NCBI GenBank assembly: GCA_023920165.1
Contig: CP089278.1
Coordinates: 806,001 to 870,000, forward strand
Direction: 5' to 3'
Source: Curvularia clavata
Lineage: Eukaryota
DNA length: 64,000 bases
Made by a program: the position numbers and the translations under genes. The notes under the pieces were generated by a model. That model searched no databases, was not told where the DNA came from, and saw only the letters and a program-made list of their open reading frames with translations. Positions within the stretch are counted from its first letter, which is position 1. Each line of letters opens with the position of its first letter. Below, in pieces: positions 57,148-63,084 of the stretch.

Positions 57148-59051
57148 ATGAAGTTCACCACTCGATCAAGCGCGTCTCTCGTTGCCATTTCGGCATTGGC
57201 GACCATTGCTCAGGCAGAAGACGTGCTTTACAGCAAACGTCTGCTGAAGCGTGGTATCGACCAGGACGGAAACTACAACATTTGTAAGTTCTGATATACA
57301 CTTGGATCTTTCTCTCACTCACGTGACACAGCCTTCTTCCACATCAACGACGTGCATGCCCATCTTGACGAGTTTAGTTCCTCAGGAACCGACTGCACGA
57401 GGCCCGAGCGTGGATGCTACGGCGGCTACGCCCGAGTCAAGACCGTGATTGAAGAGCAGCGCCCCAACTTCGAGGACAGTCTCTGGCTCAACGCCGGTGA
57501 CGAGTTTCAGGGAACCTTATTCTACAGTTACTATGGCGGCGAGAAGATTGCCGAGGTCTTGAACGAGCTCGAGTTCGATGCTATGACTCTTGGAAACCAC
57601 GAGTTCGATGGCGGAGACGCTGAGCTGGGAGAGTTCCTTGTTAATCTCACGTTTCCGATCATTAGTGCCAATGTGCACTCGCAGGATGAGAATGTCAACA
57701 AGACTGTCAAGCCCTGGACGGTCTTTGAGGAGCATGATCTGGCAGTGATTGGAGTCACCTCGCAAGACACCGGCAGTCTTAGTAATGCAGATGTGACAAC
57801 TGTCTTCTCTGACGTTGTTGAGGTATGTTTTACAGCTCACAGAAATCTAGAATCGCTGGTTACTGATAATCAACGTAGGCTGTACAAGGCGCGATTGATG
57901 AGATCAAGTCCACCACCAACATCACCAGAATTGCAGCCCTTACCCATATTGGCTACGACAAGGACCAAGAGCTTGCCAAAGCCACTACTGGACTTCACCT
58001 CATCATCGGCGGCCACAGCCACACCCTACTTGGTGACATGAAAGGCGCCGAAGGTAAATACCCCACTATTGTCGACAACAAGGACGGCGACGAGGTATTC
58101 ATCGTTACCGCTCGCCGCTGGGGAGAATATCTCGGCTACATCGACGTAACCTATGATCCATCCGGCAAGATCCTTGCCTACCACGGCGCTCCCATCCACC
58201 TCACCAACACCACGAAGCAAGAAGAATCGCTCCAAAAAGAGATCGACGCATGGCGCGTTCCGTTCGAAGAATTTGCCGCCGAAGTCCTCGGCACCAGCAA
58301 CGTCGAGCTCGACCAAACTACTTGCCAGCAGCAAGAGTGCTTGCTTGGCGACTTCATGGCTGACGCAATGCTCACATACCGTAAAAACAACACTGATGAT
58401 GTAGACTTTGCTCTTATCAACGCGGGTGGTATCCGTGCCACGATCGACCAAGGCGACATTACACGTGGAGAGGTGCTAACCTCGTTTCCCTTTGGTAATT
58501 CCATCGTGCAAGTCGCTATCACAGGCAAACTGCTCTGGGAATCCCTCGAAGGCATCGTGACCGGCGTCAACGTCGGAAATGGCAAGGAAGTCACTTCCTT
58601 CTTCCAAATCAGCTCCGGCATCAAAGTCCAGTATAACCCCAACAACGCAAACAACACCAAATTGGTCTCCGTCACCATTGGCGATCAACCACTTAAGAAC
58701 GATACTACGTATCAAATGGTGACGCTGGATTTCATCGCGGGCGGAGGCGACAACTTCTTCGAGCCCACGACCGACTTCGTCAGTCTGGATACGCAGGATG
58801 AGGTGCTCACGCAGTATATTCGCGCCAAGACACCGGTGGATATCAAGCTAGATGGGAGGATTGAGGAGGTGGATGGGCAGCGTGAGGAGGTAGGCGGTGG
58901 GAATAGCACTACACCGGCGAATGGGACTGTGCCATCAAGTGGTTCGCCGGCTCCATCGCCGCAGCAGACAACCAGTGCGGCGGCGAGGCTGAGTCAGAGC
59001 GCTATAAGCGCGTTAGTGTTGGGTGCTGTTGCGGCGCTCTGTGTGCTTTGA
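57148..59051 (+). CDS. Secreted, probably GPI-anchored 5'-nucleotidase (metallophosphoesterase)
   Basis: Signal peptide; HINDVH, NAGDEFQG, GNHEFD, GGHSH and NAGGIR; hydrophobic C-terminus; introns ~57284-57331 and ~57823-57878. Confidence 0.92.
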
Positions 59052-59769: not shown

Positions 59770-61982
59770 TTAGTTTGCCCGATGTGATTCAAGCGCTGTC
59801 GTATAGTTCTCGAGACACCGACGAGAAAGTGAATGATTCTCACCAAGAACATCTAGGAATCCGGTGTAGGCTCTCTTAAAGAGAGGTAGAGCCTCGTCAT
59901 AGCAATGTCGATTTTCAAGGGACATGGCAAGGATGTACACGTTATACAATGTCTTGGCATTCATATGCCCAAATACCTTCTCATGCACAGCTAGCGCCTG
60001 TCTATACATTGTCTCCGCCTCTTTGAACTTGCCTAGGTCATCTAGCGTTATTGCCAAGTGAAACTTACTTAGCGACGTCAGTGAGTCCTCGTGCCCCAGT
60101 AGCTCTTCACATATCGCTAACATTTGGCTCCTTAGTACTTCTGCCTCTTGGTTCTTGTGCTGTAGGTGTAATGTTACTGCTAGCTGGTTCACGGTCGTCA
60201 GCAGCGTGCGTAGATGCTCATACCCACGCAACTCCTTGCAAAGCGCCAGAACCTTTCTCTGCATTACCTCTGCCTCCTGGTACTTGCCCTGATAGCTTAG
60301 CATTGATACCAGATTTTTTATTCCCGCTTGTCTGTCATGACTCACATGTCCATGCGCTTTCCTTTCCAGCAGTTTCAAAACCTGTCTTAACTTTGCCTCG
60401 GCCTCTTTGTATTTTCCCCTCATCGTTTCGGCCATAGCCAAACTCCTCATGCTCATCAGAGTGTCTTTATGTTCTTCACCAAGCAAATCCTTTCTGACCT
60501 CCATTGATGCCACTGACATCTGCTCTGCCTCGATTGATCTCCCAGTCTGCTTGGCATAGTCTGCTGCATTGTAGAGCAGCAACGCCCATCTCAGAAGCGA
60601 CTCTAGGCTTTTCGGCTGCTGTATTAGTGCCGCCTGTAAGTGCGCAAATAACATCTCGTACTTCCCATAATTCTCGGCTTGTAGTGGCGGTAGTTCTGCG
60701 CAAAGGTTGGAGATGAACTGATTTCTCCACTTGTCTAGCTGGGCTTCATTCTCCAGCCATGCGCGAGTTGCTAGCTGCACTAGGCTATGCATCTCAAACG
60801 TGTTCGCATCTCTAGTCACGTTGATAAGGGAGTAGTCTCGTAGCATCAGCACATCGTCCTCGAAGTCGTCATCGGTCCCAACAGCTGGCACGCACTTGTC
60901 AGCTGTGCTGTTGCGCGGACGAAGCAGAGTCTCTTGTATTCTGTTTCGGTCGAAGAAGCTCATCAGCGACAGCAGATCTACTGCCGAATTCCGTGTCTTT
61001 CGGATATGGTCGAACGAGATTTGCCATGTTATAAGAACGGAGTTGCTGGCACCTTGATCTCGACGAAGATGTCCCGCTTCTCGTTTTAATAAGCTGATTT
61101 TTCTGCTATCGCTCTGCCGGTACTCATCTAGATATCGCTGTACAGAGCATCTTGGTGCTTGTTCTCGGATATATGCTGCTGCCTGTATAAGAGCAAGCGG
61201 TATGCGATCAAGTTCTGTTGCTAGCTGGGCGATGCTGTTGTCATCGTTCTCTTCGGATACATTCCGTAGCTTCTTGCGGAGCAGGGCAGATGCAGACTCG
61301 TCATCCATCGGCTCAAGGGATATAATCTCGCTATCCTCGACGACTTGCATGGCTGCGCGTTTTGTGCGGCTCAATACCAGCACCGAGCCATGGCTGCTTG
61401 GGAGCAGATACTGGAGCGCATTGCTGCCGTTTGCGAGAGAAAGAACAGCGGCATCATCGGCATTGTCAAGTATCAACAGCCACCGTCCGTTCCTCATGTC
61501 ACGTAACCATTCGCAAACCAACTTAAGCGGATTAGCCTGTGGGTTCTTACGGCCACGAACCTTAACTTGGTCGGCTATCTTGTAGAGGCTATGTTCGAGC
61601 TCCTCCACATTATTCGCGTTTGCCCAAAATATCCATGTGTCCGGCGACTGGTCGGCAGTGCGATAGCAGTGCTCGACTGCCAGCTGGGTCTTCCTGTGAT
61701 AGTGTTAGATACGGGTACTGATTCAATCGTCTTTCGTCCAACGTACCCGACGCCGCCGAGGCCCACCAGCGCTACTCGAGACGCTGGCGCGGAGCATCGT
61801 TGGCGGATCTGTTCAAGGAGGGTTCCGCGCTCAACAAAATCGACATCGCGGGGTAACGGCACGAAGGATGTGGGTTGTGGTGGAGTCTCGGGGCGTTCTG
61901 GGTAAATGTGGGCTTCGACAGAGCCAGAGTTGTATGCAATCTGCAACCCTCTATTTTGCGTGCTTGTAAACATAGTCGACAT
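59770..61982 (-). CDS. Fungal NLR: short N-terminal amyloid motif + NB-ARC + TPR
   Basis: P-loop GLGGVG|KT spliced across intron 61746-61694; Walker B WLLILDNADD; IPLALIQAAAY; MHSLVQ; kinesin-light-chain-like TPRs. Confidence 0.92.
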
Positions 61983-62289
61983 TGTGAATTGTAAGCATGT
62001 CACTGTACGTGGTAAGGGCAGGCTGTTCAGGTTATTGTATCAGAAATTTGAGAAGCAATACGCCTGATTTTGCACGTGTGACTAAGTCTGGGTCTGTGGT
62101 TGAGTCTGAGTCTGAGACTCTGTCTGAGACTGCTGCTTCATCTTGCAAGTACCCTGTAGCTGCTAGCTGTACAAACAATGTTAAAAGCGCACACTGCCCA
62201 ACTGAGATTGAATGCACACACTTCCAGCATCTCTCTCATCTTGTTATTCTGGTTTCGCAATCCCCATCGTATTTCCCCAACGCACCAAC

Positions 62290-63084
62290 ATGACCGAAGC
62301 AGCTGGTCTGGCAGTCAGTGCCGTTGCCCTCGCTAGTCTTTTCAACAATACCATCGAATGTTTCGAATTTGTCCAGCTCGGCTGTACATTTGGAAAGAGC
62401 TTCCAGACCAGTCAACTTAAGCTCGATAACGCAAGGCTCCGCTTATCCCGATGGGGCAAGTCCCTGGGTCTGGATGATCAGGATGTTCGAGAATCGACAT
62501 CGCTCAAGAGAAATCTTGCCTCAAAAGAAAATGTCGGCCAGGCTGAGGCGCTGCTGGGTCAGATTGTAGAGCTGTTCGTGGAAGCGGAAGGAGTGTCGGA
62601 GAAATATAAGAGTCGGAAAGCGCCTCAAGGCAGCTTGGCGGTGTACAACCCTCAGACTGACTTAGACCCGTCTGGAGCCAAACTTCATGAGAAGATGCGT
62701 CAGCTATCTATCGAGCGTCAGAATTGTTCAGGTATAAGGAAAAAGGCAAAGTGGGCATTGTACCAGGAAAAGCAGTTTCGCCGGCTGATTGAGGATATCA
62801 CGGACTTGGTCGACGGATTGGAAAATCTCTTTCCCGCTGCTCAGCCTTCTCGGCGTCAGCTCTGTGACGCTGAAGTATCTATCCTTGAGGAAGGCCTGGA
62901 AGGCGAAGCCATGTCGGTGTTGAAAGACATCACCGCTGCCCAGGACAAATTATTGGAGCAGGCTATCACGGAGAGTGGTGCAAAATCATACCATATTGCT
63001 TTTTCTGGTAATGGTAACTGTGGTTTTCAGCTAGGCCACAACTCTGGTACGATTTCCGGCATCACCTTTGGAAGAGATAGTTGA
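62290..63084 (+). CDS. HeLo-domain cell-death effector with C-terminal PP-like amyloid motif
   Basis: N-terminal hydrophobic helix AAGLAVSAVALASLF, RLRLSRWG and KWALY (HET-S HeLo hallmarks); tail GNGNCGFQLGHNSG. Confidence 0.9.
   Translation: MTEAAGLAVSAVALASLFNNTIECFEFVQLGCTFGKSFQTSQLKLDNARLRLSRWGKSLGLDDQDVRESTSLKRNLASKENVGQAEALLGQIVELFVEAEGVSEKYKSRKAPQGSLAVYNPQTDLDPSGAKLHEKMRQLSIERQNCSGIRKKAKWALYQEKQFRRLIEDITDLVDGLENLFPAAQPSRRQLCDAEVSILEEGLEGEAMSVLKDITAAQDKLLEQAITESGAKSYHIAFSGNGNCGFQLGHNSGTISGITFGRDS

What the first reader, a model, noticed from the sequence alone, without database searches (positions are those of the whole stretch)
59770..63084. Head-to-head NLR / HeLo pair sharing a PP (RHIM-like) amyloid signalling motif
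Seen: the NB-ARC-TPR gene has no effector domain, only a ~25-aa leader containing QNRGLQIAYNSG. The divergent gene 307 nt away is a HeLo protein ending in NCGFQLGHNSG; both fit NxGxQxxxNSG. Known: fungal NLRs trigger adjacent pore-forming effectors by amyloid templating (NWD2/HET-S; PNT1/HELLP, with the PP motif NxGxQxGxN). Inference: this is an intact cell-death immune module combining a HET-S-type HeLo domain with the PP motif rather than a HET-s-type two-repeat motif. The NLR exon is not obvious from the ORF track because an intron splits the P-loop.
Basis: partly seen in the sequence, partly recalled or inferred. Interest (0 to 1): 0.7.

Follow-up and report, generated by a model that had tools for sequence, protein, structure and literature searches.

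The report
Ordinary fungal amyloid-linked cell-death gene pair
A fungal immune-sensor gene and a membrane-puncturing self-killing gene sit head to head and share a short amyloid-type signalling tag; the pair is real, but this combination has been described since 2012 and is common in related fungi.

Summary
Observation confirmed. A 719-aa NLR (PP leader, P-loop split by a 53-nt GT-AG intron, six TPR units) lies 307 nt head to head with a 264-aa HeLo protein ending in a PP motif. A PP profile built from relatives hits only these two places among 2,339 six-frame peptides. The reading as an amyloid-templated cell-death pair is sound but not new. The PP motif was defined in 2012 on HeLo / NB-ARC-TPR pairs in Arthroderma (PMC3321046). 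The same head-to-head layout recurs in 8 of 8 informative metagenome loci, and this scan reported it before in another genome. This copy is a diverged one: its two motifs match at 7 of 16 positions (lowest of 15 pairs), the NLR core reads GLQIA rather than GxQxG, the TPR units are not internally conserved, HeLo has Cys at an almost invariant Arg32, and one intron is lost. Both frames are open and branch dN/dS is about 0.07-0.14, so the pair is probably functional. Amyloid formation and killing are inferred, not shown. New member of a known kind; low interest.

The parts
61747..61982 (-). NLR exon 1: PP-motif leader, ERPETPP linker and first part of Walker A
   Evidence: aligns with 7 related NLR 5' ends
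61923..61970 (-). PP motif of the NLR, residues 5-20 (FTSTQNRGLQIAYNSG); Ser and Ala stand at two consensus Gly positions
   Evidence: PF17046 19.2 bits, below cutoff; own HMM E=3e-5; consensus in PMC3321046
61694..61746 (-). 53-nt GT-AG intron splitting the P-loop
   Evidence: same position in 7 of 7 related NLR 5' ends; skipped in one low-depth contig of run X2, possibly from a paralogue
59770..61693 (-). NLR exon 2: nucleotide-binding domain (Walker B WLLILDNADD, MHD-like FEMHSL), DUF7779 domain, TPR array, stop
   Evidence: relatives hit NB-ARC above cutoff in 3 of 3 scanned
59833..60600 (-). TPR sensor array, six ~42-aa units, not internally conserved
   Evidence: TPR_10 and TPR_12 E~1e-33; units listed; mean identity 35%, maximum 40% over the 4 units that passed the score cut
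61983..62289 (.). 307-nt divergent intergenic region, the presumed shared promoter (not tested)
   Evidence: relatives 233-336 nt
61951..61998 (-). Out-of-frame upstream ATG opening a 15-codon frame that overlaps the NLR start; whether it lies in the transcript is unknown
   Evidence: the stretch is identical in a contig of run X9
62290..63084 (+). Single-exon HeLo-PP effector gene, 264 aa
   Evidence: E=7.8e-34 to PDB 2WVN and 3.7e-33 to 2WVO, the HET-s/HET-S HeLo domains
62305..62886 (+). HeLo domain (residues 6-199) with hydrophobic N-terminal segment; Cys32 at 62383-62385 where 116 of 120 rows have Arg
63001..63048 (+). PP motif of the effector, residues 238-253 (FSGNGNCGFQLGHNSG), single copy, canonical
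   Evidence: PF17046 32.7 bits; fits the published consensus pattern, as do 98 of 120 rows

Best explanation
A two-gene PP-type amyloid signalosome for non-self-triggered cell death. SHOWN here: gene structures, domains, homologous PP motifs at the NLR N-terminus and HeLo C-terminus, a conserved head-to-head layout, and purifying selection. INFERRED from NWD2/HET-S and PNT1/HELLP: an unknown ligand binds the TPR array; the nucleotide-binding domain oligomerises; the clustered PP leaders nucleate an amyloid; this templates the PP tail of the HeLo protein, which unfolds, releases its N-terminal helix into the plasma membrane and kills the cell compartment. This copy is most likely an old, settled one whose sensor no longer reshuffles its repeats.
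For: HeLo and PP by Pfam and PDB. Motif pair unique in the window; the two motif-coding stretches are also a 26-nt, 73% inverted repeat. Divergent PP leader upstream of HeLo in 8 of 10 fetched loci; the other 2 have only 35 and 146 nt upstream. Consecutive locus tags for a Kalmusia HeLo and NLR (P0088, P0228). Walker A, Walker B and MHD-like motifs present. Pairwise dN/dS 0.07-0.16 and 0.07-0.14 on this copy's own branch in 6 of 6 triplets. Contigs with 0-1 differences cover parts of the NLR at depth 2-5.6 in three runs whose contigs skip the neighbouring gene's introns. The NLR leader's HMM score ranks 13th of 20 leaders given (18 scored), within the range of relatives. Mechanism: PMC7885112 (abstract, passages, one section) and PMC3531502 (passages).
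Against: No amyloid, binding or toxicity data for this pair. The NLR motif lacks two consensus glycines and falls below the Pfam cutoff; motif identity within the pair is 7 of 16 against 8-12 in 14 other pairs. The NLR departs at 25 of 169 conserved columns (median 4; 6 of 117 rows as many). HeLo N-terminal hydrophobicity is among the lowest 5 of 117, and Arg32 is Cys. An out-of-frame ATG lies 16 nt upstream of the NLR start. dS values of 0.8 to above 2 are near saturation, so dN/dS averages over a long branch and cannot exclude recent decay. In the papers read, the tested PP systems use HeLo-like (HELL) effectors, not HeLo.
Confidence: 0.75

Rival explanations
1. A PP signalosome in early decay or uncoupled: the frames are still open, but the NLR leader no longer seeds the effector efficiently, or little NLR is translated.
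For: Shortened leader (P-loop at residue 74 against 77-81 in 13 of the 17 listed relatives, the other 4 being longer predictions); GLQIA core; lowest pair identity; upstream out-of-frame ATG; long branches in both genes (3 of 117 and 3 of 115 rows as far from outgroups); diverged TPR units.
Against: No stop or frameshift in 2,160 + 795 nt. Branch dN/dS 0.07-0.14, with dS lengthened as well as dN. No RIP signature (TpA/ApT 0.79 and 0.61). Ala at that core position occurs naturally (5 of 120 HeLo tails; L004 leader). Most fungal NLR TPR arrays lack high internal conservation (only 21% have it; PMC4986451, passage).
Confidence: 0.16
2. A HET-s-like variant: the HeLo domain has lost toxicity while its canonical PP tail still propagates as a prion, possibly used in allorecognition against strains with a toxic allele.
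For: Cys32 lies next to position 33, which decides toxicity in HET-S/HET-s (PMC3531502; alignment). The N-terminal segment is less hydrophobic than in most relatives (1.48 against median 1.75), while the PP tail is canonical. Position 23 is acidic, as in non-toxic HET-s.
Against: Position 33 is Thr, the commonest residue in the family (58 of 120), not Pro. Position 23 is Glu or Asp in 117 of 120 rows, so it is a family trait and the HET-S rules do not transfer simply. HeLo departs at only 8 of 127 conserved columns, and 24 of 120 rows have as many. No second allele was seen.
Confidence: 0.06
3. Chance neighbours with a low-complexity Gly/Asn/Gln resemblance and no functional link.
For: The motif is short; direct BLASTP gives only 7 of 20 identities, E=0.002. 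Motifs are no more alike within pairs than between pairs (10.1 against 10.1 of 16; 2,931 of 5,000 shuffles reach the observed value).
Against: Layout and motif positions are conserved in 8 of 8 informative loci and match a described system. Similar within- and between-cluster identity is also reported for PP motifs (PMC7885112, passage).
Confidence: 0.02

Closest known systems
HeLo-PP / PP-NB-ARC-TPR gene pairs of Arthroderma otae and A. gypseum (Daskalov et al. 2012, PMC3321046, section 8 read)
   Same: True HeLo domain, single C-terminal PP motif, adjacent NLR of NB-ARC-TPR type with an N-terminal PP motif and no effector domain.
   Different: Different fungal class (host here is Pleosporaceae-like). 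The NLR motif here departs from the consensus at two glycines. The Arthroderma sequences were not compared directly, and their gene orientation is in a figure that could not be seen.
PNT1 / HELLP of Podospora anserina and PNT1 / HELLP / SBP of Chaetomium globosum (PMC7885112)
   Same: PP motif pair, NB-ARC-TPR sensor, adjacent genes; experimentally shown prion-type activation of cell death.
   Different: The effector there is HeLo-like (HELL); here it is HeLo. No SBP lipase partner flanks this pair. Podospora PNT1 varies from 4 to 10 repeats between isolates; no repeat-number change was seen here.
NWD2 / HET-S of Podospora anserina (PMC3531502, PMC5485727)
   Same: HeLo pore-forming domain (E~1e-33 to 2WVO); amyloid templating from an adjacent NLR.
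   Different: HET-S has a two-repeat HET-s (HRAM) motif and NWD2 is NACHT-WD40; here the motif is a single PP and the sensor is NB-ARC-type with TPRs.
Mammalian RHIM (RIPK1/RIPK3)
   Same: G-hydrophobic-Q-hydrophobic-G core, as described in PMC7885112; the HeLo tail has GFQLG.
   Different: The NLR has GLQIA; there is no kinase; structural identity of PP and RHIM amyloids is stated there as not established.

Membership tests
PP-motif NLR/effector pair (HeLo type, Daskalov 2012) | Effector and NLR genes adjacent | tested here: met
   307 nt apart, head to head; same layout in 8 of 8 informative loci
PP-motif NLR/effector pair (HeLo type, Daskalov 2012) | Effector = HeLo domain plus a C-terminal PP motif | tested here: met
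   PF14479 E=2.8e-51, PF17046 32.7 bits; fits the consensus pattern
PP-motif NLR/effector pair (HeLo type, Daskalov 2012) | NLR without effector domain, with an N-terminal motif homologous to the effector tail | tested here: met
   Own HMM E=3e-5 against next best 0.18; DNA alignment with 7 PP-leader NLRs; PF17046 is the only Pfam hit on exon 1
PP-motif NLR/effector pair (HeLo type, Daskalov 2012) | Exact pseudopalindromic core NxGxQxGxN in both partners | tested here: inconclusive
   Exact in HeLo; the NLR has Ala for the second Gly and scores 19.2 bits against a 23.2 cutoff. The same variant occurs in relatives; its effect is unknown
PP-motif NLR/effector pair (HeLo type, Daskalov 2012) | NB-ARC-type NTPase with intact P-loop, plus a TPR sensor | tested here: met
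   Walker A and B and MHD-like motif present; TPR hits. NB-ARC is assigned through relatives (3 of 3 above cutoff, 1 of 3 also above the NACHT cutoff); exon 2 alone gives only a weak NACHT hit
PP-motif NLR/effector pair (HeLo type, Daskalov 2012) | Motifs form amyloid and the NLR motif seeds the effector | not testable with these tools
   Needs fibril and seeding assays
PP-motif NLR/effector pair (HeLo type, Daskalov 2012) | HeLo N-terminal helix able to insert into membranes and kill | tested here: inconclusive
   Hydrophobic segment present but among the lowest 5 of 117; Cys32; no TM predictor run; AlphaFold model unusable
HELLP/PNT1 (HeLo-like PP) | HeLo-like (HELL) effector domain | tested here: not met
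   Only HeLo PF14479 and PF17046 hit at E<=1
HET-S/NWD2 (HRAM) | Two-repeat HET-s motif and a NACHT-WD40 sensor | tested here: not met
   No HET-s motif or WD40 hit at E<=1; the PDB match ends at residue 226
sigma (sesA/sesB/het-eN) | Threefold GxGxQFN / GGTQN sub-motifs | tested here: not met
   Absent on reading both termini against the definition in PMC3321046; the Pfam name Ses_B is a misnomer for PP

The most novel reading that the evidence does not exclude
This copy is a naturally detoxified HeLo-PP protein: Cys32 and a weakened N-terminal helix switch off killing, while the canonical PP tail still propagates as a prion. It would be a natural counterpart of [Het-s] on a RHIM-like amyloid, with the NLR partner drifting out of register. 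PMC7885112 (discussion passage) names the search for such natural variants as an open question.
Probability: 0.06. Interest if true: 0.6.

Novelty: new member of a known kind. Interest (0 to 1): 0.17.

Why it matters
As it stands it matters little: one more member of a system type known since 2012. It has two modest uses. First, in the papers seen (searches; open-access library only), the PP systems tested at the bench have HeLo-like effectors, so the large Pleosporales family of true HeLo-PP pairs shown here offers test cases for whether one amyloid tag drives both pore-forming domains. Second, this diverged copy is a natural test of how far the PP core can drift (GLQIA against GFQLG) and still seed.

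Tried and rejected
No whole genome is held, so paralogues, synteny and trans-acting PP partners could not be checked. No RNA holder is listed on record; run types are guesses. In one search the HeLo coding region had no cover in X1 or X2 and only a partial piece with a loose end in X5; this is no evidence either way on expression. The contig that skips the P-loop intron (X2, depth 2.7, 70 letters on the short side) was not among the listed pieces, and paralogue pieces with 19-23 differences were also laid at 85% likeness, so the joint may come from a paralogue. The AlphaFold model of HeLo had pLDDT 57 and pTM 0.24 and was not used; no fold search was run. No complex prediction was sent, because an amyloid filament is outside what that tool tests well. 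My first reading of the Ses_B hit as a sigma motif was rejected. No co-evolution of motifs within pairs (15 pairs: 8 of 20 protein pairs matched only by equal contig length, 6 loci, and the window). The TPR identity of 0.17 came from a mis-registered unit and was replaced; the 0.24 includes capping units. Hits are ranked by score, which favours long conserved arrays, so the contrast with relatives is inflated. The idea that the upstream ATG is an ancestral start cut off by a frameshift could not be told from an ATG-to-GTG change. No RIP signal. No tandem repeat in the TPR DNA. No transposase or recombinase among 17 further long ORFs scanned, of 24 in the window. A search for HeLo + amyloid signaling + Pleosporales + NLR found 0 papers. 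No earlier scan finding matched by sequence. No supplements were opened; those of PMC9815663 may list these Pleosporales pairs.

Full report
Observation. The window is fungal. The neighbouring 5'-nucleotidase is 84% identical to Pyrenophora teres and 81% to Bipolaris victoriae, which suggests a Pleosporaceae-like host. On the plus strand, 62290-63084 encodes a 264-aa protein with HeLo (PF14479, E=2.8e-51, residues 6-199) and PF17046 (residues 233-257). It matches the HET-s/HET-S HeLo crystal structures at E~1e-33 over residues 1-226. On the minus strand an ATG at 61982, 307 nt away, opens an exon that ends inside Walker A; removing a 53-nt GT-AG intron gives a 719-aa frame with GLGGVGKT at residue 74. 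Exon 2 holds Walker B, an MHD-like motif, DUF7779 and six TPR units. The shared pattern occurs only twice in the six frames. A profile built from relatives alone finds the same two sites at E=2.4e-15 and 3e-5, with the next best at 0.18 among 2,339 peptides.

Which motif. Pfam calls it Ses_B, which first suggested the sigma family. PMC12261475 (one passage) states that PF17046 is PP, misnamed. The published PP consensus is FxGx(x)NxGLQLxGxNxGxL (PMC3321046 section 8). The HeLo tail FSGNGNCGFQLGHNSG fits the pattern, as do 98 of 120 aligned rows. The NLR leader FTSTQNRGLQIAYNSG is homologous but has Ser and Ala at two Gly positions and scores under the Pfam cutoff.

How common. A search with the HeLo protein gave 277 hits among 1,938 candidates; 110 of the 120 listed carry both PF14479 and PF17046, and most named hits are Pleosporales. 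Ten metagenome loci were fetched. Eight have enough upstream DNA, and all eight show a divergent PP leader 233-336 nt away; five of them also show NLR exon 2 by tblastn. The P-loop intron sits at the same place in 7 of 7 aligned NLR 5' ends. The NLR has 3,218 hits among 7,999 scored candidates.

What is known. Daskalov et al. 2012 (PMC3321046; passages and section 8) describe HeLo proteins in two Arthroderma species with a short non-HET-s tail, next to NB-ARC-TPR genes with the homologous N-terminal extension, and name that extension PP. This is the same architecture. PMC9815663 (passages) finds the PP class in 296 NLRs and reports PP with both pore-forming and enzymatic effectors. PMC7885112 (abstract, passages, one section) shows prion-type activation for PNT1/HELLP, with a HeLo-like effector. 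PMC3531502 (passages) gives the HeLo mechanism and the roles of positions 23 and 33. PMC5485727 (one of four parts), PMC4986451 (passages) and PMC12881547 (passages) agree. The scan itself reported the same type in another genome (e1-7502578), an unchecked note seen after I had read the 2012 paper.

Is this copy working? For: both frames are open; pairwise dN/dS is 0.07-0.16 and 0.07-0.14 on this copy's branch, though dS is near saturation; there is no RIP signature. In three runs whose contigs skip both GT-AG introns of the nucleotidase gene, contigs with 0-1 differences cover parts of the NLR at depth 2-5.6. One contig in X2 skips the P-loop intron, but it may come from a paralogue. Against: both genes lie on long branches. 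The NLR departs at 25 of 169 conserved columns. The pair's motifs match at 7 of 16 positions, against 8-12 in 14 other pairs. The TPR units are 35% alike on average and 40% at most, against medians of 60% and 88% in 113 relatives, a contrast inflated by hit ranking. HeLo has Cys where 116 of 120 rows have Arg32, though its 8 departures at 127 conserved columns are matched by 24 of 120 rows. Its N-terminal hydrophobicity is among the lowest 5 of 117. The intron between the PP exon and the linker, present in 7 of 7 relatives, is absent. An out-of-frame ATG lies 16 nt upstream of the NLR start. A near-identical protein fragment differs at 3 of 397 residues with no change in repeat number.

Mechanism. 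Most likely (0.75), ligand-induced NLR oligomerisation nucleates a PP amyloid that converts the HeLo tail and releases the membrane-inserting helix, killing the compartment. Everything after gene structure, linkage and selection is inferred from the Podospora and Chaetomium systems; the ligand is unknown. Rivals are early decay or uncoupling (0.16), a non-toxic prion-forming variant like HET-s (0.06), and chance (0.02).

Verdict. New member of a known kind; interest 0.17.

Noticed in passing
L001, L002, L005, L006, L007, L010, NLR 5' ends: The intron after the PP exon has a GC donor in 5 of 7 related NLR genes and GT in 2. This may explain why gene callers often miss or retain the PP exon. The window's gene lacks this intron altogether.
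   Followed up: partly
P0005, P0007, P0009, P0012, P0030, P0033, P0072 and others: HeLo-PP proteins from different Pleosporales genera are 76-95% identical (Ophiobolus-Massariosphaeria 93%, Pyrenophora-Melanomma 84%), often more than the housekeeping nucleotidase from the same genera (Pyrenophora-Melanomma 73%). The window's copy is only 73-76% identical to Pyrenophora and Alternaria copies. This may reflect strong constraint, paralogy or horizontal movement of the module; only one comparator gene was used.
   Followed up: partly
L001:2735-5266: Downstream of the HeLo gene lies a 626-aa ORF that reads like a Fot1/pogo-type DDE transposase (by eye, recalled, not scanned), followed by the start of a second PP-leader NLR.
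   Followed up: no
window:63130-63300: About 15-18 substitutions cluster just downstream of the HeLo stop, largely shared by runs X1, X2 and X9 (X5 where it covers), while flanking genes differ by under 1%. The window carries a divergent haplotype of this short stretch.
   Followed up: no
P0001 residue 23 and family: 117 of 120 family rows have Glu or Asp at the position matching Asp23 of non-toxic HET-s (Ala in HET-S), so toxicity of this whole HeLo subfamily cannot be read from the Podospora rules.
   Followed up: partly
P0190, P0053: Two predicted proteins carry HeLo, PP and TPR annotations in one chain: either real fusions or gene-calling read-through.
   Followed up: no
window:63290-64000 (minus strand): An acidic ORF with no Pfam hit, covered by a long contig in three RNA-like runs, converges on the HeLo gene and runs off the window.
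   Followed up: no
window:57170-59051 (plus strand): A 5'-nucleotidase gene with a hydrophobic C-terminal tail; two introns (57284-57331 and about 57823-57878) are confirmed by contigs.
   Followed up: yes
window:62085-62132: A weak 6-nt tandem repeat (AGTCTG x8, 66% matches) lies in the intergenic region.
   Followed up: no
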